NCBI RefSeq assembly: GCF_018350175.1
Contig: NC_058368.1
Location: 45,448,001-45,512,000, forward strand
Reading direction: 5' to 3'
DNA: 64,000 nucleotides
Source of the DNA: Felis catus
Taxonomy: Eukaryota
The first letter of the stretch is position 1. Every line of letters begins with the position of its first letter. The translations under genes were made by a program, and so were the position numbers. A model generated the notes under the pieces. It had not been told where the DNA came from, did not search any database, and saw only the letters and a program-made list of their open reading frames with translations. Positions 7,339 through 16,849 of the stretch are shown here, one piece after another.

Positions 7339-9096
7339 GGGGGATATAGGCTGCCTAAAGCAAGGTGTTAAAACAACCCACATGAGGAGTATGCTTATGC
7401 AGGGGGTTGGTGAGTAAGGGCAGAGTGCCTGGTAACATATTGAATGATAAATACACAGGCAGCCCAGCATATGGTATCAAAGCTCAAGTTTAGTAAGAAG
7501 GGCTACTGCAAAGGAAAGTAGCCTGGCACAGTCTATGAAAGCATGAGCAGAGTCAGACTGCCCATGCAGAGGTGGAGGCAGTATGGCCAGGTGTAGGGTA
7601 CTGGATCTCTGGGAGGGTGAAATGGACACCAGTGTAGGAAGGCAGTTTATTAGAGCCTAAGTGGAATAAAGAACATATTCTTGTAAGAGAGTGGTCTGTC
7701 ATGGGGTGGTAGAATGGAAGAAAGGTAACCCAACATGGAGTACAAGAATCCCAGAAAGTTGAGAGGAGTGTCTTTGTAGAACGATCTAGAGCAGAGTTGT
7801 AGGTAAGTGGATCCAATTACTGGGAAGTGTTGGCACATAGACATGGTAAGAGGGACAGCTCTTTGGAAGTCAGCACAGCTTAGAAAATTAGCACCCAAGC
7901 AATGTGAGGAAAGAATCCATGAAGGATGACCCAACTTCATCTCCAACTTGTGCTGGAGCCCAAGCAGAGTGAAAAGGGCATTCACCAGGGAGGGTATCAG
8001 AGTGCAGATTAAGGTGACATCCATCTGAGCATCAGAACATGCATAGTCCATGTGGACTGCTTGAAGTGGTGGCCTGTTGCGGGTTGCCAGAGCCTGAGTG
8101 AGCTGAAAAAGGTATCTTTGAGGGATGGGGAAAGAGTAGGAGCACCGAGGGTTTATCGAATAAAGATGGATTAATTGAATAATTAAATATATTAAAGATA
8201 ATGTGAGTCAGGTATTTATTAGAGAAGGAAGTTATATACATGAAAAGGGAAAAAAAGAATAAACTCTGCTGTGTTGCATTAGAATTAATCAGTGGGAGCC
8301 TGATGATGATGTACAATATGCAATCAATATAGGAATAAACACGGATGATACTGTATGTGTGTACACATGCATATGTGTGTGAATATCTACATCCCCTTGC
8401 TCTGTCCACTTAGAGTGCCCAAGAACAATGATACCCCGAAAACAATGAGCACACCTAACATTCAGACATTGGTTTCTAAATTTGATTTGGCACACTAAAA
8501 AGACACAGGGCTTCTAAGAGAAATGACTGGGTTAGGGCAAAGTATAAAACGGGCCTGGGAAATCTGCACCAGAAAATAAGAAAGTGCTCGAAGAAAGATG
8601 GATTCTTGTATAAATGACACAGAGCTAGTTTGAAGGAGCTTCTATGGTTTACAATTCCTATCAACCTCATCACTATCAAGGAAGCTCAGTTTCTGCATCT
8701 CCTGCCATTAGCCCTGCGCTACTGTGAAGAGCCATCTTGGTTATGGTGCCTATCTTCACAAAGAAGCTGTGATTGATTTTATGAATCCAATGTGCCCCAG
8801 GCCTTATTACAAAACACAGTCAAATGGTAAATTTCCCAATCTTATGTAGTACATCCATATACCCACTCTATCATATCTGATTCTCTGAGCCTTTGATTCC
8901 TTCTTCTACCACTTGCCATAGCACTCTGGTAATTTTACTTTGTGTAATTAGTCCAACTATTTGTTCATGCTTCTAATAGCCATCCTAAGGGCATGATAGT
9001 GAGAAGTCAGAACCCCCACCTTTTGCTACATAAATAACCGCTTTCATTCCGCTTCTGTAAAACTGCTTATGCGCCCCACCCTAGTCGGAAAGTCCC

Positions 9097-9168
9097 CAGC
9101 CGCTACGCAACCCGGGCCCCAAGTTGCATCAGCCGCTTCGCAACCCGGGCTCCAAGTTGCATCAGCCG
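9097..9168 (+). promoter_or_regulatory. U3 enhancer-type tandem direct repeat, 2 x 33 bp plus a 6-bp partial unit (also at 15575-15646)
   Basis: CAGCCGCTACGCAACCCGGGCCCCAAGTTGCAT / CAGCCGCTTCGCAACCCGGGCTCCAAGTTGCAT / CAGCCG; 2 mismatches between the units. Confidence 0.85.
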
Positions 9169-9255
9169 AAAGAAACTTCATTTCCCAAGCTTCCCCGGGA
9201 CGAAATTACCCACAACCCCAACCACCACCGAGCAGAGAGCCTATCGCCAGCCTGT

Positions 9256-9284
9256 ATGCAAATGTAACTCAAAATGGTATAAAA
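9256..9284 (+). promoter_or_regulatory. LTR core promoter: octamer ATGCAAAT (9256-9263) and TATA box TATAAAA (9278-9284)
   Basis: Exact motif matches at the expected U3 position; duplicated in the 3' LTR. Confidence 0.8.
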
Positions 9285-9436
9285 GACCTGTAACCCCGTT
9301 TATCGAGGCTCTCCCGCTTTCCAACACTGGGGAGCCCTGGTGCACCAGTAAAGACTCTCTGCCGACGTCGGAGTGCCGTGTGGTTCTTTGCGCCAACTCT
9401 CATTCCATAGGGCTTAGGAGCTTGGCTCCTAACATT

Positions 9437-9454
9437 TGGTGCGTTGGCCGGGAA
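9437..9454 (+). other. Primer binding site complementary to the tRNA-Gly 3' end
   Basis: TGGTGCGTTGGCCGGGAA is the reverse complement of TTCCCGGCCAACGCACCA, the 3' end of mammalian tRNA-Gly(TCC) as I recall it; lies 2 nt after the LTR CA. Confidence 0.92.
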
Positions 9455-9557
9455 TCGAGGGAAGGCAAGAGAACCCCGGCCCCGTCGGTGGATGACTCTC
9501 CGGCCCGGGCCACTGACGGACTGACTGAAGACAGACTTCTGTGCCTTTGTCTACACA

Positions 9558-9566
9558 CAGGTATTG
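9558..9566 (+). other. Candidate major splice donor CAG|GTATTG for env mRNA
   Basis: Donor-like motif between the PBS and the psi hairpins, the usual gammaretroviral position. Confidence 0.55.
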
Positions 9567-9597
9567 TGTTCTATGTTTTGTCTCTGAACTGTGAATT

Positions 9598-9686
9598 CTG
9601 AGGCCGGCCGGCCACCTCAGTAGGAGTGTTGAAGGAGGACAGACGTGTCCTGAACCTTCACACCCCAGCCCCGAGGGACGCCTCGG
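9598..9686 (+). other. Gammaretroviral dimerisation/packaging signal (psi core)
   Basis: Hairpin CTGAGG...CCTCAG overlapping the palindrome GGCCGGCCGGCC, then two GACG-tetraloop hairpins AGGACA-GACG-TGTCCT (loop 9642-9645) and CCGAGG-GACG-CCTCGG (loop 9677-9680), matching the MLV SL-C/SL-D architecture. Confidence 0.85.
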
Positions 9687-9898
9687 TGGTGTCTGTAGGG
9701 GAGAACTGACAAGTTCGTCAGACTCCCCAAATCCGTAGGCAGGCCTCCCCTGCCATCTGAATCTGAATACCTGGCCGCGGCTCCTTGGTTGTTGTCTAGT
9801 CTGTGTTGTCTGGTCTGTGTCGACATTGTAGTCATCTTTGTGTATGTGTGTGTAAGTGTGCTGGTGTGGACGCGTGGACAGGACAGGACGACACAGCC

Positions 9899-10315
9899 AT
9901 GGGACAGACATTGACTACTCCTCTAACTTTGACTCTGACTCATTTCTCGGACGTCCAAGCAAGAGCTCACAATCTTTCCCTTGAGGTTCGGAAAGGTCGA
10001 TGGCGAACTTATTGTTCATCAGAGTGGCCCACCCTATCCGTAGGGTGGCCCCGGGACGGGACTTTTGACCTCTCTATTATATTACAGGTTAAGACGAAGG
10101 TAATGGATCCCGGACCACAAGGTCATCCAGATCAAGTAGCCTATATCCTCACTTGGGAGGATCTCATTCGGAATCCTCCGGCATGGATGAAACCCTTCCT
10201 CCCTTCCTACCCCCTATCTCAATCTACCCTTCTTCCCCTGAAAACCTCAAAAGACCGAGCCTCAACCCCCTCTTACAGCCTCCACCCTATAATCCGCCCC
10301 TGGCCCCCGCCTTGA
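9899..10315 (+). CDS. gag: Truncated Gag: matrix domain with myristoylation motif plus a short frameshifted tail (138 aa)
   Basis: ATG in strong context (GCCATGG), MGQT N-terminus, GHPDQVAYI motif of gammaretroviral MA; stop at 10313-10315. Confidence 0.7.
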
Positions 10316-10360
10316 CCCCGGTGGCCCCTACTTCCCCTCCTGCCTCCAGTTCCTCCTCCC

Positions 10361-10679
10361 CCTCCTCTCCCGGTCCTGTGGCCGTGCGTCCGGGGCCCGA
10401 GCCGCGGCCCCGCCCCCGCTCCCCGCTGGCGATCCCGGCCCCCCTTTTGCCCTGTCGGGGCGGCTCGCGCCGAGGCCGAGTCGCGCGCGGGGCTGCGCCC
10501 CGGGGATGCGTGCCCCGGCGGCGGCCCGCGGGACGCCGCGGCGTCGCCCGCCGCTGCGCGTGCGGTGCCCCGTGCCGCGCGGTCCCGTGGGCCGTCGTGG
10601 GGGGTGGAGGTTGTGGATCCGGAGCGCCGTTGGTCTCGCCGTCTTGCCCCGGGCGGCGGCCGCGGCGGTCTGGCCGTGG
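10361..10679 (+). other. Captured non-viral GC-rich cassette, probably a pre-rRNA ITS2 fragment (sense orientation)
   Basis: Abrupt switch to very high GC/CpG and almost no A; 10496-10560 (CGCCCCGGGGATGCGTGCCCCGGCGGCGGCCCGCGGGACGCCGCGGCGTCGCCCGCCG...) resembles the human ITS2 block I recall (GCCGGGGTTCGCGTGTCCCCGGCGGCGACCCGCGGGACGCCGCGGTGTCGTCCGCCG). Viral CA sequence resumes at CCC CTC ACC CGC (PLTR). Confidence 0.78.
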
Positions 10680-11325
10680 CCCCCTCACCCGCCCGGACTG
10701 GGACTATGAAACGGCTCCAGGTAGGGAGAGTCTCCGAATCTATCGCCAGGCTCTGTTGGCGGGTCTCAAGGGGGCAGGGAAACGGCCCACCAATTTGGCC
10801 AAGGTAAGGACCATAATTCAAGGAAAAGAGGAAAGCCCCGCAGCCTTTATGGAACGGCTTCTAGAGGGGTTTCGGATGTATACTCCATTTAACCCCGAGG
10901 CTCCAGAACATAAGGCTACCGTGGCCATGTCGTTCATAGATCAGGCAGCATCTGATATAAAAGGAAAGCTCCAACGGCTAGATGGGATTCAAACCTATGG
11001 GTTGCAGGAACTAGTTAGGGAGGCAGAAAAGGTATATAACAAGAGGGAAACTCCAGAAGAACAGGAGGCTAGGCTAGCAAAAGAGCAGGAAGCACAGGAG
11101 GAACGAAGAGATCGAAAGAGAGATAAACATCTAACAAAAATCCTGGCAGCTGTAGTGACAGAAAATAGAACAGGAAAGTCAGGGGAAACGAAGAGGCGGC
11201 CCAAAATAGAAAAAGACCAATGTGCCTATTGCAAAGAGCGCGGGCACTGAATCAAAGACTGCCCTAAGCGCCTTAGAGACTCAAAGAAATCTACCCCCAT
11301 ACTCACCTTGGGCGAAGAGAGAGAG

Positions 11326-11385
11326 TAGGGGCGTCAGGGCTCTGGAGCCCCCCCCGAGCCCCGGCTAACTTTATCTGTAGGGGGG
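11326..11385 (+). promoter_or_regulatory. gag-pol amber readthrough signal (TAG plus downstream pseudoknot-type element)
   Basis: TAG GGGCGTCA GGGCTCTGGAGCCCCCCCCGAGCCC...: in-frame amber codon, 8-nt spacer, then a GGGCTC/GAGCCC stem as in MLV-type readthrough. Confidence 0.8.
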
Positions 11386-14300
11386 CATCCCACCACCTTC
11401 CTGGTGGACACAGGAGCTCAGCACTCGGTCCTAACCAAGGCAAACGGGCCTCTGTCCTCTCGTACCTCTTGGGTTCAAGGAGCGACAGGAAGAAAAATTC
11501 ACAAATGGACTAACTACCGTACGGTTGATTTAGGGCAAGGGACAGTGACACACTCTTTTCTGGTAGTACCCGAATGCCCATACCCCCTTTTAGGACGAGA
11601 CCTCCTAACCAAGCTTGGAGTTCAGATCCATTTCTCCAAAGCGGGGGCCCAAGTGCTAAACCGGGATGGCCAGCCTATCCAAGTCTTAACTGTGTCCTTA
11701 CAAGACGAACACAGACTTTTTGAAACCCCGGTCACCACTAACCTCCTCGAAGCCTGGCTGCAGGACTTTCCCCAGGTCTGGGCAGAAACGGGAGGGCTTG
11801 GTCGAGCCAAATGCCAGGCCCCAATCATAATTGACCTAAAGCCCACGGCAATGCCTGTATCTATCAGGCAGTATCCTATGAGCAAGGAGGCTCATATGGG
11901 CATTCAGCCACACATTACCAGATTTCTAGAGCTTGGGGTCCTGCGACCTTGCCGCTCACCTTGGAATACCCCTCTCTTACCAGTGAAAAAACCTGGTACT
12001 CGAGACTACAGGCCCGTCCAAGACTTAAGGGAAGTCAACAAAAGGACTATGGATATCCATCCTACGGTCCCCAATCCCTATAACTTGCTCAGCACCCTGA
12101 GCCCAGACCGCACCTGGTACACAGTACTGGACCTAAAAGATGCATTCTTTTGCTTACCCTTGGCCCCCCAGAGCCAGGAACTGTTTGCTTTCGAATGGAG
12201 GGACCCTGAAAGAGGAATCTCAGGCCAATTAACCTGGACCCGCTTACCCCAAGGGTTCAAAAACTCCCCCACTCTCTTTGATGAGGCTCTCCACAGGGAC
12301 CTAACTGACTTCCGGACTCAACACCCAGAAGTAACTCTACTCCAATATGTGGATGACCTTCTTCTGGCCGCCCCCACAAAGGAAGCCTGCATACGAGGTA
12401 CCAAACATCTGCTTCGGGAATTGGGAGACAAAGGATACCGGGCATCCGCCAAGAAGGCCCAGATTTGCCAAACCAAGGTAACCTACCTGGGGTACATACT
12501 GAGTGAGGGGAAAAGATGGCTCACCCCTGGGCGAATAGAAACTGTGGCTCGCATTCCGCCGCCCCAGAACCCCAGAGAGGTACGTGAATTCCTGGGAACT
12601 GCTGGGTTCTGTCGCTTATGGATACCTGGGTTCGCTGAGCTAGCCGCCCCCCTCTATGCCCTCACGAAAGAGAGTGCACCCTTCACCTGGCAGGAAAAAC
12701 ATCAGTCAGCCTTTGAGGCCCTAAAAGAGGCCCTCCTCTCCGCCCCGGCTCTCGGGTTGCCAGACACCTCCAAGCCCTTTACCCTCTTCATAGACGAGAA
12801 ACGAGGAATTGCCAAAGGAGTTCTAACCCAAAAATTAGGGCCCTGGAAGAGGCCAGTAGCATACCTGTCCAAAAAGTTGGACCCTGTGGCAGCGGGGTGG
12901 CCCCCATGTCTTCGTATCATGGCAGCCACTGCTATGCTGGTCAAGGACTCTGCCAAATTAACCCTTGGACAGCCACTAACTGTTATCACCCCGCATGCTT
13001 TAGAGGCCATAGTGCGGCAGCCACCGGACCGATGGATAACCAACGCACGCCTAACCCACTACCAGGCCCTCCTACTGGACACGGACCGCGTCCAATTTGG
13101 ACCTCCGGTTACCTTGAACCCTGCCACGTTGCTACCGGCACCGGAAGACCAACAGAGCGCACACGATTGCCGGCAAGTACTGGCTGAGACCCATGGGACA
13201 CGGGAAGACCTTAAAGATCAAGAGCTCCCAGATGCGGATCACTCTTGGTATACGGACGGGAGCAGTTACATCGACTCAGGTACCCGGAGGGCGGGAGCGG
13301 CGGTAGTAGATGGCCACCACATCATATGGGCACAATCACTACCTCCTGGCACGTCTGCACAAAAGGCCGAGCTGATAGCGCTCACCAAGGCCCTAGAACT
13401 ATCCGAAGGGAAAAAGGCTAACATATACACAGATAGCCGATATGCCTTTGCAACGGCTCATACACACGGGAGTATTTATGAAAGAAGGGGCCTACTAACC
13501 TCAGAAGGCAAAGAAATTAAAAACAAAGCTGAAATAATTGCATTATTAAAGGCCCTTTTTCTTCCCCGAAAAGTAGCCATAATTCATTGCCCCGGGCATC
13601 AGAAAGGACAAGACCCAATTGCAACAGGAAATAGACAGGCAGACCAAGTAGCCAGGCAAGTCGCTGTGGCAGAAACGTTGACTTTGACCACAAAACTTGA
13701 AGAAACCAATCTTACGACCAACAAATATGCTTACACCCCAGAAGACCAGGAAGAGGCAAAGGCCATAGGGGCTATACTGAATCAGGACACTAAAGACTGG
13801 GAAAAAGAAGGAAAGATAGTCCTTCCCCGAAAGGAAGCCCTGGCAATGATCCAACAAATGCACGCCTGGACACATTTAAGTAATCAGAAGCTGAAGTCAC
13901 TGATTGAAAAAACTGACTTCTTAATCCCTAAGGCAGGCACCCTCATAGAACAGGTGACCTCCGCCTGTAAGGTCTGTCAACAGGTAAACGCTGGGGCTAC
14001 CCGAGTGCCAGAAGGAAAACGGACTCGTGGTAACCGCCCAGGAGTCTATTGGGAAATAGACTTTACTGAAGTAAAGCCTCACTATGCGGGGTATAAGTAC
14101 TTATTAGTGTTTGTAGACACCTTTTCAGGATGGGTAGAAGCCTACCCCACCCGACAAGAAACGGCACACGTGGTAGCCAAGAAGATTTTAGAAGAAATCT
14201 TCCCCAGATTTGGACTTCCCAAGGTAATCAGGTCAGATAACGGGCCGGCCTTCGTTTCCCAGGTAAGTCAGGGGCTCGCCAGGACACTGGGGATTAATTG

Positions 14301-14899
14301 GAAATTACACTGTGCATATAGGCCCCAGAGCTCAGGACAGGTAGAAAGAATGAATAGAACAATAACAGAGACCCTTACTAAATTGACCTTAGAGACTGGC
14401 TTAAAAGATTGGAGACGCCTCCTATCTCTGGCCTTGTTAAGAGCCAGAAATACACCCAACCGTTTCGGGCTCACCCCATATGAAATCCTTTATGGGGGAC
14501 CCCCCCCTTTTGTCAACCTTGCTCAATTCCTTCTCCCCCTCCGATCCTAAGACTGATTTACAAGCCCGACTAAAAGGGCTGCAAGCGGTGCAGGCCCAAA
14601 TCTGGACACCCCTGGCCGAACTGTATCGGCCAGGACATCCACAAACTAGCCACCCATTTCAGGTAGGAGACTCCGTGTACGTCCGGCGGCACCGCTCTCA
14701 AGGATTGGAGCCTCGTTGGAAGGGACCTTACATCGTCCTGCTGACCACGCCCACCGCCATAAAGGTTGACGGGATCGCCGCCTGGATTCACGCATCGCAC
14801 GCCAAGGCAGCCCCAAAAACCCCTGGACCAGAAACTCCCAAAACCTGGAAGCTCCGCCGTTCGGAGAACCCTCTTAAGATAAGACTCTCCCGTGTCTGA
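11329..14899 (+). pseudogene. pol: pol (protease-RT-RNase H-integrase), open to 14550 with a +1 frameshift at 14508-14511; IN C-terminal domain continues in the next frame to 14899
   Basis: [38 protein letters not shown]; RNase[42 protein letters not shown]; second frame LSTLLNSF...WKGPYIVLLTTPTAIKVDGIAAWIHASH...IRLSRV*. Confidence 0.95.
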
Positions 14900-14933
14900 C
14901 TGCTAATCCACCTTGTCCCTGTACTAACCCAAA

Positions 14934-15326
14934 ATGAAACTCCCAACAGGAATGGTCATTTTATGTAGCCTAATAATAGTTCGGGCAGGGTTTGACGACC
15001 CCCGCAAGGCTATCGCATTAGTACAAAAACAACATGGTAAACCCTGTGAATGCAGCGGAGGGCAGGTATCTGAGGCCCCACCGAACTCCATCCAACAGGT
15101 AATTTGCCCAGGCAAGACGGCCTACTTAATGACCAACCAAAAATGGAAATGCAGAGTCACTCCAAAAAATCTCACCCCTAGCGGGGGAGAACTCCAGAAC
15201 TGCCCCTGTAACACTTTCCAGGACTCGATGCACAGTTCTTGTTATACTGAATACCGGCAATGCAGGGCTTTCTTCCGTACCTCCTACCTCTCCTGGGACC
15301 CCTACTCACCCTCCTACTCATACTAA
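14934..15326 (+). CDS. env: Truncated soluble Env product, 130 aa (signal peptide + ~94 aa SU N-terminus + 18 frameshift residues)
   Basis: Open ORF from the native ATG (AAAATGA); hydrophobic signal MVILCSLIIVRA; 8 Cys in the mature part; no TM helix in frame. Confidence 0.6.
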   Translation: MKLPTGMVILCSLIIVRAGFDDPRKAIALVQKQHGKPCECSGGQVSEAPPNSIQQVICPGKTAYLMTNQKWKCRVTPKNLTPSGGELQNCPCNTFQDSMHSSCYTEYRQCRAFFRTSYLSWDPYSPSYSY

Positions 15327-15451
15327 CCATTGGGCCATGCGTTTTCGGTCGCCTCATGGCCTTCATTAATGATAGACTTAATGTTGTACATGCCATGGTG
15401 CTGGCTCAGCAATACCAAGCACTCAAAGCTGAGGAAGAAGCTCAGGATTGA
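14934..15451 (+). pseudogene. env: env (RD-114 type) with a large internal out-of-frame deletion at 15261-15268
   Basis: SU N-terminus up to YTEYRQCRA is joined directly to the TM anchor/cytoplasmic tail (QGFLPYLLPLLGPLL...AEEEAQD) in another frame; no furin site, fusion peptide, ISD or CX6CC present. Confidence 0.95.
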
Positions 15452-15462
15452 GCTTCCGGGAC

Positions 15463-15477
15463 AAAAGCAGGGGGGAA
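15463..15477 (+). other. Polypurine tract
   Basis: AAAAGCAGGGGGGAA immediately before the TG of the 3' LTR. Confidence 0.9.
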
Positions 15478-15912
15478 TGAGAAGTCAGAACCCCCACCTT
15501 TTGCTACATAAATAACCGCTTTCATTCCGCTTCTGTAAAACTGCTTATGCGCCCCACCCTAGTCGGAAAGTCCCCAGCCGCTACGCAACCCGGGCCCCAA
15601 GTTGCATCAGCCGCTTCGCAACCCGGGCTCCAAGTTGCATCAGCCGAAAGAAACTTCATTTCCCAAGCTTCCCCGGGACGAAATTACCCACAACCCCAAC
15701 CACCACCGAGCAGAGAGCCTATCGCCAGCCTGTATGCAAATGTAACTCAAAATGGTATAAAAGACCTGTAACCCCGTTTATCGAGGCTCTCCCGCTTTCC
15801 AACACTGGGGAGCCCTGGTGCACCAGTAAAGACTCTCTGCCGACGTCGGAGTGCCGTGTGGTTCTTTGCGCCAACTCTCATTCCATAGGGCTTAGGAGCT
15901 TGGCTCCTAACA
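15478..15912 (+). repeat. 3' LTR (435 bp)
   Basis: Directly follows the polypurine tract; no differences from the 5' LTR found on manual comparison; the same 74-aa shadow ORF appears in both copies. Confidence 0.97.
15825..15830 (+). terminator. Candidate non-canonical poly(A) signal AGTAAA in R of the 3' LTR (copy at 9347-9352)
   Basis: No AATAAA downstream of the TATA box in the LTR; AGTAAA lies ~65 nt after TATA and is followed by a GT-rich stretch (GTGCCGTGTGGTTCTTTG). Confidence 0.65.
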
Positions 15913-16849
15913 TTAGCATCATCTCTAAGTGTCTTTGCTGGGGTGTTAAACTGCATATTGATAAACTCTCCTTTAGTCAACTTTGTTTTCCACACATCTC
16001 TTGATTCAGCACCCTCACAGTCCAGTCTCACATGTATTTTTCTGGCACCTATGAATGCATGTTGGCTCTGGGAATACTCTGGCTAAGTTATATTCAACTT
16101 AACCTTATTTATTGGCTTAAATATTGAGAATAGTTTCTGAGAATAGGAAGCATTTCTTATCTTGAAAAGAAGAGGGATTTTCTTTGTCTTCCAGAAAGAG
16201 GATGCACTAGCCTTTAGCAGCAAAATGTATGGCATACTTGCAGAGAAATTAGATTCTCAGTAAACTCTGGAAATTTAAGATTTTCAAGTGAATCAACCAA
16301 GATGATCCCAATCCATGCCTTGTTCTCCCTCCCACTCCCCAATCAGGCCCCTGACTTTAGTGAGGCAGATGCCAGTACCAAGAATGTAAGCTTCTATGGA
16401 AGTCTGATTTTCCTTTGGTTGAGCTCCAGGACTAGTCTTCAGCTCTTTCTGCTGAGCGCAGGAGAGGAGAGTCCTTTATAGCTTTCAAGGGAGCCCTCTG
16501 CCTTTCTCCCTCCAGTTGTCTTCCTCCAAAGCATTTATTACAACATTTACCACAGCATTTATTGCAACAACTATCTGATTCCATTTTCTCTTTAAATAAG
16601 ATTTCTGCCCAATTCATTCAATTGCATGATATGTTGCCTCAGCCAGTGCATTTTCTTCTATCATTATGTGAGCTCAGTTCAGTGAAAATTCGAATTGTAT
16701 TGTGCCTACATAGTGAACTATGGACATAACTATGAATTATGACATTAGGACTCTGGGGACAGAGAACATGACACCTACAGCCAGTGATGGTGCCCTCATT
16801 GCCAACTGAATGACAATGATCTAGCTCCAAAATTCTAGTTTATTTAGGG

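What the first reader, a model, noticed from the sequence alone, without database searches (positions are those of the whole stretch)
9000..15912. Identical LTRs around a multiply defective genome with intact cis signals: a natural helper-dependent vector
Seen: I find no difference between the two 435-bp LTRs and CpGs are well preserved, implying very recent integration. Yet the interior has a gag deletion, a foreign replacement cassette, an NC stop codon, an IN frameshift and a large env deletion. Every cis element needed for mobilisation is intact (PBS-Gly, dimerisation palindromes, two GACG hairpins, PPT, TG/CA ends, TATA, poly(A) signal). Inference: most lesions arose during replication before this integration, and the genome was carried in trans by a replication-competent RD-114/ERV-DC helper. 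It may belong to a small lineage of cargo-carrying defective copies and may still be mobilisable, which matters for feline cell lines used in vaccine or vector production.
Basis: partly seen in the sequence, partly recalled or inferred. Interest (0 to 1): 0.75.

Follow-up and report, generated by a model that had tools for sequence, protein, structure and literature searches.

The report
Cat provirus carrying permuted rRNA spacer
A young, broken cat retrovirus in the genome has swapped part of its capsid gene for a rearranged, ring-like piece of the cell's own ribosomal RNA precursor, and a sister copy with the same cargo exists elsewhere, so the crippled genome was probably spread by a helper virus.

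Summary
Confirmed: an RD-114-type provirus (97% to L001) with two identical 435-nt LTRs, a 100-nt p12 deletion, a 438-nt gag segment replaced by foreign DNA, an NC stop, an IN frameshift and a 1,180-nt env deletion. The packaging and replication signals look preserved, but the target-site duplication has one mismatch. New here: the foreign cassette is host pre-rRNA ITS2, sense strand, and it is an exact circular permutation of one contiguous 322-nt ITS2 interval. Reverse transcriptase entered and left at the same 7-nt pyrimidine patch, and the internal seam has at most 1 nt of homology. Felis catus gene models P0001/P0010 carry the same permuted insert and seam but lack this copy's p12 deletion; P0001 has a private 133-nt deletion and lies on a different-sized chromosome. 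So the capture predates this integration and founded a lineage of at least two capsid-defective copies, most simply spread in trans. LTR identity alone does not date the other lesions (95% bound about 0.3-1.5 Myr). Reads, the empty allele and the sister locus's DNA were not seen. This is a new variant of known helper-dependent ERVs and host-RNA patch repair, and possibly a fossil of a circular ITS2 RNA.

The parts
8996..8999 (.). Left copy of the 4-nt target-site duplication; differs at its first base from the right copy
9000..9434 (+). 5' LTR (TG...CA). 33-nt tandem repeat in U3 at 9097-9168, TATAAA at 9278, AGTAAA at 9347; lacks a 47-nt block present in L001
9437..9454 (+). Primer-binding site (tRNA-Gly type, from recall). 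Differs from L001 at the position where RDRS C1 is also reported to differ
   Evidence: PMC4313119 text
9596..9690 (+). Core encapsidation signal: GGCC palindrome at 9602-9613 and two GACG-loop hairpins (9642, 9677)
   Evidence: Rfam RF00374, E 0.0017, below gathering
9899..10315 (+). Gag stub: intact matrix domain, then out of frame after the p12 deletion; 138 aa
   Evidence: Pfam Gag_MA E 2e-50
10264..10268 (+). Junction of the 100-nt p12 deletion, 5-nt exact microhomology relative to L001; absent from the sister copy
10358..10364 (+). Left copy of the 7-nt pyrimidine direct repeat (virus/ITS2 crossover site)
10365..10560 (+). ITS2 piece B, the downstream part of the native interval, placed first here
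   Evidence: equals P0004 aa 272-338 (66 of 67 codons) and P0002 aa 40-106 (67 of 67)
10561..10686 (+). ITS2 piece A, the upstream part of the native interval, placed second here. Ends in the right copy of the 7-nt repeat (10680-10686). The B|A seam at 10560/10561 has 0-1 nt of homology
   Evidence: equals P0004 aa 232-273 (42 of 42 codons)
10687..11328 (+). Rest of gag: C-terminal capsid and NC, with a premature stop at 11248-11250
   Evidence: Pfam Gag_p30 model positions 81-201 only
11326..11387 (+). gag/pol readthrough pseudoknot
   Evidence: Rfam RF01073, 70.1 bits, above gathering
11329..14899 (+). pro-pol: PR, RT, RNase H and IN core open for 1,073 codons; IN C-terminal domain in another frame after a frameshift near 14500-14511
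14934..15451 (+). env remnant: signal peptide plus SU to about residue 110, a 1,180-nt frameshifting deletion at an 8-nt microhomology (15261-15268), then the TM tail
15458..15477 (+). Polypurine tract region, identical to L001
15478..15912 (+). 3' LTR, identical to the 5' LTR
15913..15916 (.). Right copy of the target-site duplication

Best explanation
An RD-114-type virus co-packaged a discrete 322-nt fragment of host pre-rRNA ITS2. During minus-strand synthesis RT left the capsid gene at a 7-nt pyrimidine patch and entered the fragment at the matching patch. It copied to the fragment's 5' end, continued from its 3' end (across a ligated circle, or by an end-to-end jump on a linear fragment), arrived back at the same patch and returned to the virus in p12, skipping 438 viral nt. 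The product kept the gag frame but lost the capsid N-terminal domain, so it could only move when another RD-114/ERV-DC-type virus supplied Gag-Pol and Env. It kept its packaging and replication signals, integrated at two or more places in the cat germline, and each branch picked up its own microhomology deletions. This copy is a young, protein-dead passenger. SHOWN: anatomy, ITS2 origin, permutation, and a sister sequence with reciprocal lesions. INFERRED: RT origin of the junctions, RNA template, trans-complementation, and that the sister is an independent integration.
For: ITS2 origin: 14 non-viral database ORFs contain the insert pieces. The C-termini of the three tested map to position 1 of the Rfam eukaryotic LSU model in 6 of 6 loci scanned. 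The insert is 83% G+C with 3% A; human ITS2 is given as 83% GC (PMC7544222 passage). Permutation: 14 of 14 rDNA-type ORFs continue past piece B into non-A sequence, 13 of 14 show A upstream of B, and 0 of 14 have the seam. Codon count of the native interval (107x3+1) equals the 322-nt spacing of the two 7-nt repeats. Lineage: P0001 and P0010 (Felis catus RefSeq/UniRef) have the seam and both viral junctions. P0001 differs from the window at 1 of 159 aa. P0010 shares 4 residues with the window against L001 in MA-p12, with none private. Both keep the p12 segment lost here, and P0001 has a 133-nt gap at an 8-nt microhomology with no GT-AG or GC-AG register. P0001 lies on a 169,388,855-nt contig (recalled as cat A2). 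This window's piece carries RNF17, ATP7B, TDRD3, SCEL and ZNF608 by unchecked scan notes (recalled as cat A1). Host-RNA patch repair at microhomologies is established (PMC4997597 passage), and HIV-1 packages nascent rDNA transcripts (IGS; PMC4931115 passage).
Against: The sister copy is seen only as predicted proteins. Its LTRs, flanks, pol and env were not seen, so gene conversion between existing proviruses is not excluded. The chromosome assignments rest on recall and on AI notes. ITS2 was compared at codon level only; no cat rDNA DNA was obtained (searches found none). The link to 5.8S is weak by tools (1 of 80 loci, E 0.002). No protein with the env-deletion tail or the p12-deletion stub was found elsewhere, so those lesions are single-copy so far. 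The target-site duplication is imperfect. No paper seen shows ITS2 specifically in virions or as a circle. No reads were laid.
Confidence: 0.72

Rival explanations
1. One capture event, spread without virions: the insert-bearing gag segment moved between already integrated RD-114/ERV-DC proviruses by ectopic gene conversion or duplication, and the other lesions arose in the germline after integration.
For: The sister's flanks were not seen. Identical LTRs are compatible with up to about 0.3-1.5 Myr of residence, and with two interior point lesions by chance (p 0.76). Microhomology deletions also arise by DNA end-joining. Scan notes report inter-locus conversion between L1 copies in this genome (unchecked).
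Against: The window and the sister share all 4 MA-p12 residues against L001, upstream of the insert, so a tract would need to be long. CpGs are largely preserved, and the excess of CpG loss over L001 is not significant (19 vs 10, p 0.14). Two large deletions within a short residence time are more typical of reverse transcription (established knowledge).
Confidence: 0.13
2. The permuted order was already in the host: a minority of cat rDNA units carry a tandem duplication of the 322-nt interval, or a small rDNA circle (microDNA) existed, and a B-A slice was patched in at the RNA or DNA level.
For: rDNA is multicopy and heterogeneous; the ORFs found differ among themselves. microDNAs are 100-400 bp and GC-rich (PMC5587290 passages).
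Against: 0 of 14 rDNA-type ORFs have the seam, and a search of shorter proteins across the seam gave 0 hits among 58 candidates. microDNA junctions typically show 2-15 bp repeats, whereas the seam has 0-1 nt (inferred from codons). The insert is in the sense of the transcript.
Confidence: 0.1
3. Assembly artefact: rDNA reads were spliced into the provirus and the LTRs were collapsed.
For: No reads were laid. No listed run held all sampled words of the insert region (best 0.86).
Against: The same insert, seam and junctions occur in RefSeq/UniRef cat gene models that differ from the window by reciprocal deletions. The junctions sit on precise microhomologies.
Confidence: 0.03
4. Co-opted antiviral truncated Env (Refrex-1 or suppressyn-like): the locus is kept for a secreted Env stub.
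For: The stub keeps the signal peptide and 109 of its first 110 residues are identical to L001. Refrex-1 arises from truncated ERV-DC env (PMC5923473).
Against: The stub ends at about residue 110, before the SDGGG motif at residue 166 of L001 Env. That motif is recalled as needed for receptor binding in this Env group. There is no evidence of expression or fixation.
Confidence: 0.02

Closest known systems
RD-114 virus-related sequences RDRS A2, C1, C2a, C2b, D4, E3 (Shimode 2015, PMC4313119; text parts 1-4 and 6 of 6 read, supplement text read, primer table is an image and was not seen)
   Same: ERV-DC-type gag-pol with BaEV-type env; young, often identical LTRs; defective; PBS variant at the same position as RDRS C1; the RDRS env screening primer matches exactly at 14942.
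   Different: None of the 5 published TSD hexamers or 2 published flank primers matches. No RDRS is listed on A1. No host insert is mentioned in what was read. The env qPCR and Cel-I primer sites of PMC9046391 fall inside this copy's deletion, so those assays would miss it.
recKoRV in koala (PMC5696478, passages read)
   Same: Non-autonomous recombinant with viral LTRs and leader, coding region replaced by foreign sequence, present at several germline loci.
   Different: Its cargo is another retroelement (PhER, 4.9 kb) and it occupies 15 or more loci. Here the cargo is 322 nt of host pre-rRNA spacer, and only two copies are indicated.
Patch repair / deletion-with-insertion by co-packaged host RNA, e.g. 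7SL inserts (review PMC4997597, passages; PMC5086612, passages)
   Same: A viral deletion bridged by an unlinked host RNA through short microhomologies.
   Different: Known cases in the passages read come from culture or patients. Here it is in the germline, was inherited by further copies, comes from ITS2 and is circularly permuted.
ERV-DC genotypes I-III (review PMC5923473, parts 1-3 and 5 of 5 read)
   Same: gag-pol family; repeated recombination with RD-114 is described (RDRS E3 pol).
   Different: ERV-DC has a gamma-type env; the env remnant here is RD-114-type (97.5% block to L001).

Membership tests
RD-114-related proviruses (RDRS) | gag-pol closely related to RD-114 | tested here: met
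   97.2-97.5% identity to L001 over the main blocks. L001 is taken as RD-114 from its recalled length (8,406 nt); 3 of 5 published pSc3c coordinates matched and 2 did not.
RD-114-related proviruses (RDRS) | RD-114/BaEV-type env rather than ERV-DC gamma env | tested here: met
   109 of 110 N-terminal residues are identical to L001 Env; the RDRS env primer matches.
RD-114-related proviruses (RDRS) | Identity with one of the six published loci | tested here: not met
   TSD hexamers 0 of 5 and flank primers 0 of 2. The GenBank sequences LC005744-9 themselves were not available.
RD-114-related proviruses (RDRS) | Insertional polymorphism among cats | not testable with these tools
   No genome is held and no reads were laid.
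Helper-dependent (non-autonomous) ERV lineage, recKoRV/VL30-like | Cannot encode a functional Gag/Pol/Env set | tested here: met
   Capsid model positions 1-80 are missing; there are also frameshifts, a stop and the env deletion.
Helper-dependent (non-autonomous) ERV lineage, recKoRV/VL30-like | Cis signals for packaging, priming and integration retained | tested here: met
   Sequence level only: (5 substitutions and 1 indel versus L001 between the PBS and the gag ATG, plus 1 substitution and 1 indel in or at the edge of the PBS).
Helper-dependent (non-autonomous) ERV lineage, recKoRV/VL30-like | Same inactivating junction at two or more independent integrations | tested here: inconclusive
   The same junctions and reciprocal private deletions occur in P0001/P0010 on a different-length contig. 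The flanks and LTRs of that copy were not seen.
Helper-dependent (non-autonomous) ERV lineage, recKoRV/VL30-like | Packaging and transfer in trans shown | not testable with these tools
   Needs bench work.
Pre-rRNA ITS2-derived sequence | Native context directly upstream of the 28S rRNA 5' end | tested here: met
   ORFs containing A-B end at LSU model position 1; piece B lies about 790 nt upstream by codon count.
Pre-rRNA ITS2-derived sequence | Native context downstream of 5.8S rRNA | tested here: inconclusive
   The P0004 N-terminus hit 1 of 80 loci (E 0.002); otherwise it is recognised from recall.
Circular RNA template | Back-joined seam present in RNase R-resistant RNA with ITS2 flanks on both sides | not testable with these tools
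   Only the permuted DNA copy is seen.

The most novel reading that the evidence does not exclude
Cat cells make a covalently closed 322-nt circle from the middle of ITS2 as a by-product of pre-rRNA processing or decay. An RD-114-type virion packaged it, RT copied it exactly once round, and the result was fixed in the germline and amplified by helper virus. This would be a genomic fossil of an undescribed mammalian rRNA-spacer circular RNA with its ligation site readable at base resolution.
Probability: 0.3. Interest if true: 0.82.

Novelty: new variant of a known kind. Interest (0 to 1): 0.66.

Why it matters
It is a natural record of a retrovirus capturing a non-coding nucleolar by-product. 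The permutation gives the exact two ends of a discrete ITS2 fragment, a sharp prediction that one RT-PCR or a seam k-mer search in RNase R data can test. It shows that a capsid-dead, cargo-bearing RD-114 genome reached the cat germline more than once, a small feline parallel to recKoRV. In practice, env-based RD-114 screens and knockouts that target the deleted interval would not see it, and databases mislabel the chimeric gag as 'translation initiation factor IF-2-like'.

Tried and rejected
No whole genome is held, so other loci and the empty site could not be searched in DNA. Rfam on the provirus found no rRNA core match in the insert, as expected for a spacer. Exact insert patterns gave 0 hits in viral contigs and 0 in metagenome contigs, and the insert had no DNA hit in 80 fetched rDNA loci. 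The insert as viral duplication or window-local sequence was rejected: nothing significant (best E 0.53 against L001/L002, 0.065 for self-palindromes in the window). The insert as coding mRNA was rejected: all six frames are open, there is no codon-position bias and Pfam finds no hit. Sequencing-run search: 20 of 24 rows from 9 studies hold part of 10250-10750, the best share is 0.86 and none is complete. Other copies of the env deletion: 1 candidate (P0017), which lacks the deletion tail. Exact look-up of three window stubs: 0 of 3 in the collection. Structure at the seam: in the circular fold the seam is not in a hairpin loop and ranks 49 of 322 positions for local pairing, so there is no support for ends juxtaposed by a stem. 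The entry/exit patch is predicted unpaired, which is weak. There is no APOBEC3 signature (38 G>A vs 39 C>T, mixed contexts). The CpG-loss asymmetry is not significant. The bacterial promoter scan was irrelevant. Earlier scan notes held nothing on this element. Literature searches listed no paper describing an rRNA-spacer insert in a feline ERV; the library lacks most subscription papers, and the 1980s RD-114 clone papers, ECE1 (Beyer 1987) and Anai 2012 were not read. Passages of PMC4138527 supplements (12 RD114 alignments, no coordinates seen), PMC10878261 and PMC11240321 added nothing on this locus.
Full report
1. Observation. The element at 9000-15912 is a provirus with two letter-identical 435-nt LTRs, the only two copies in the window. 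Its closest fetched relative is L001 (8,406 nt; 97.2-97.5% over the main blocks), then L002 (70-83%). I take these as RD-114 and BaEV from recalled lengths; 3 of 5 published pSc3c coordinates matched L001 and 2 did not. All five lesions are real in the assembly: a 100-nt frameshifting deletion in p12 (5-nt exact microhomology), replacement of 438 nt (Gag residues about 190-335) by 315 non-viral nt, a stop in the NC knuckle at 11248, an IN frameshift near 14500-14511 in a homopolymer tract, and a 1,180-nt env deletion (8-nt microhomology). The PBS, palindromes, two GACG hairpins, readthrough pseudoknot, PPT, TATA box and TG/CA ends are present. The poly(A) hexamer candidate is AGTAAA, as in L001. 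The 4-nt target-site duplication has one mismatch.

2. What LTR identity does and does not show. Zero differences in 435 nt gives a 95% upper age of about 0.29 Myr at 1.2e-8 per site per year (the rate in PMC4313119), or about 1.5 Myr at a recalled 2.2e-9. Two point lesions would both miss the LTRs with probability 0.76. So identity shows youth, not that the lesions came first. Differences from L001 in PR-RT-RNase H are mostly silent (54 synonymous vs 12 non-synonymous codons of 787): the divergence built up in working viruses. CpG loss is not significantly skewed (19 vs 10, p 0.14).

3. The cargo is pre-rRNA ITS2. The insert is 83% G+C, 3% A and CpG-rich, with no match in the viruses or the window. 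A protein search with the insert read in the gag frame gave 9 hits among 3,245 candidates. With their cluster members these comprise 14 unnamed ORFs without viral sequence and 2 cat gene models with it. The C-termini of the three unnamed ORFs tested match 80 of 80 fetched loci (loci chosen by that peptide, so the count is not independent). In the 6 loci scanned, Rfam puts position 1 of the eukaryotic LSU rRNA at the match. The N-terminus of P0004 reads as the 5.8S 3' end from recall; by tool the support is weak (1 of 80 loci, E 0.002). These ORFs are spurious translations of rDNA, and the insert comes from the middle of ITS2, sense strand, about 790 nt upstream of 28S by codon count. The species of those contigs is not given; identity to the insert is near complete (42 of 42 and 66 of 67 codons for P0004).

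4. It is circularly permuted. In rDNA the order is A then B, contiguous (P0004 residues 232-273, then 272-338). In the provirus it is B (10365-10560) then A (10561-10686). All 14 rDNA-type ORFs run from B into unrelated ITS2, 13 of 14 show the exact A core upstream of B, and none has the B|A seam. Both virus/ITS2 crossovers fall at the same ITS2 point, a 7-nt pyrimidine run repeated 322 nt apart, and 322 is exactly the length of the native interval (107 codons + 1 nt). From the flanking codons the seam has 0 or 1 nt of homology. The copy is therefore one full turn of a 322-nt unit opened at the crossover patch. My split among ways of making it: end-to-end jump of RT on a linear fragment 0.4, covalent RNA circle 0.3, three independent jumps guided by the only pyrimidine patch 0.12, native tandem rDNA variant 0.1, DNA circle 0.08. 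Folding gave no sign that a stem brings the two ends together (seam rank 49 of 322).

5. A sister copy. P0001 (XP_044908082.1, XP_044909062.1) and P0010 (UniRef A0ABI8ABT8), both Felis catus, contain both viral junctions and the seam. P0001 differs from the window at 1 of 159 residues across the insert and capsid remnant. P0010 shares 4 MA-p12 residues with the window against L001, with none private. Both retain the p12 segment deleted here, so in them the insert lies in frame in Gag (net change -123 nt). P0001 in turn lacks 133 nt of capsid at an 8-nt microhomology with no canonical intron register. P0010's tail jumps 3,942 nt to the env acceptor region, which may be a modelled intron. Neither copy can be derived from the other by loss alone. 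P0001's contig is 169,388,855 nt, recalled as cat chromosome A2, while unchecked scan notes place RNF17, ATP7B, TDRD3, SCEL and ZNF608 on this window's piece, recalled as A1. Whether the two RefSeq accessions are one or two loci is unknown. No other protein carried the env-deletion tail or the p12 stub.

6. Mechanism. Shown: the capture removed the capsid N-terminal domain (Pfam Gag_p30 positions 1-80 absent) in a common ancestor of two sequences. Inferred: since gammaretroviral Pol is made by readthrough of Gag (established knowledge; pseudoknot), that ancestor needed Gag, Pol and later Env in trans. Replication-competent ERV-DC loci and RD-114 recombinants exist in cats (PMC5923473, PMC4313119). 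A tract at 11250-11800 that is 6.5% diverged from L001, against 1.6% downstream (36/550 vs 55/3460, boundaries chosen after looking), suggests recombination with another ERV-DC-type genome in one of the two lineages, which fits co-packaging. The main rival is conversion between resident proviruses (0.13).

7. Comparison and novelty. By sequence it is an RD-114-related provirus, but it matches none of the published loci by TSD or flank primers, and two env assay primers fall in its deletion. Non-autonomous germline recombinants (recKoRV) and host-RNA patch repair are known; HIV-1 packages rDNA intergenic-spacer transcripts. Five searches listed no paper on an ITS2 insert in a feline ERV or a permuted spacer in any ERV. 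The library omits most subscription journals, the older RD-114 clone papers were not read, and the primer table of PMC4313119 is an image that could not be read. Verdict: a new variant of a known kind. Interest 0.66.

Noticed in passing
window 8996-8999 and 15913-15916: The single TSD mismatch is at the first base after the U5 end and equals the viral unprocessed TT dinucleotide. It may come from repair templated on the 5' overhang at integration (inference).
   Followed up: partly
window 11250-11800: NC-protease tract about four times more diverged from L001 than the rest of pol; a likely recombinant tract from another ERV-DC genotype in one lineage.
   Followed up: partly
P0001 / XP_044908082.1, XP_044909062.1: RefSeq names a Gag-ITS2 chimera 'translation initiation factor IF-2-like'; two accessions carry the identical protein, possibly two loci.
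   Followed up: partly
P0010 N-terminus and p12: The sister model lacks two residues near the MA start, and both sister models have a p12 stretch without the PSAP motif found in L001.
   Followed up: no
window 9035 and 9097-9168: The LTR lacks a 47-nt block present in L001 and has a 33-nt tandem repeat. A 433-nt RD-114 LTR insertion in PAX3 is reported in cats (PMC11240321), close to this LTR's length; the sequences were not compared.
   Followed up: no
P0017: Unnamed ENA ORF of an RD-114-type Env only about 80% identical to the window's env stub, i.e. a more diverged relative.
   Followed up: no
P0002-P0009, P0011-P0016: Protein databases hold long spurious ORFs translated from ITS2 into the 28S 5' end of rDNA.
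   Followed up: yes
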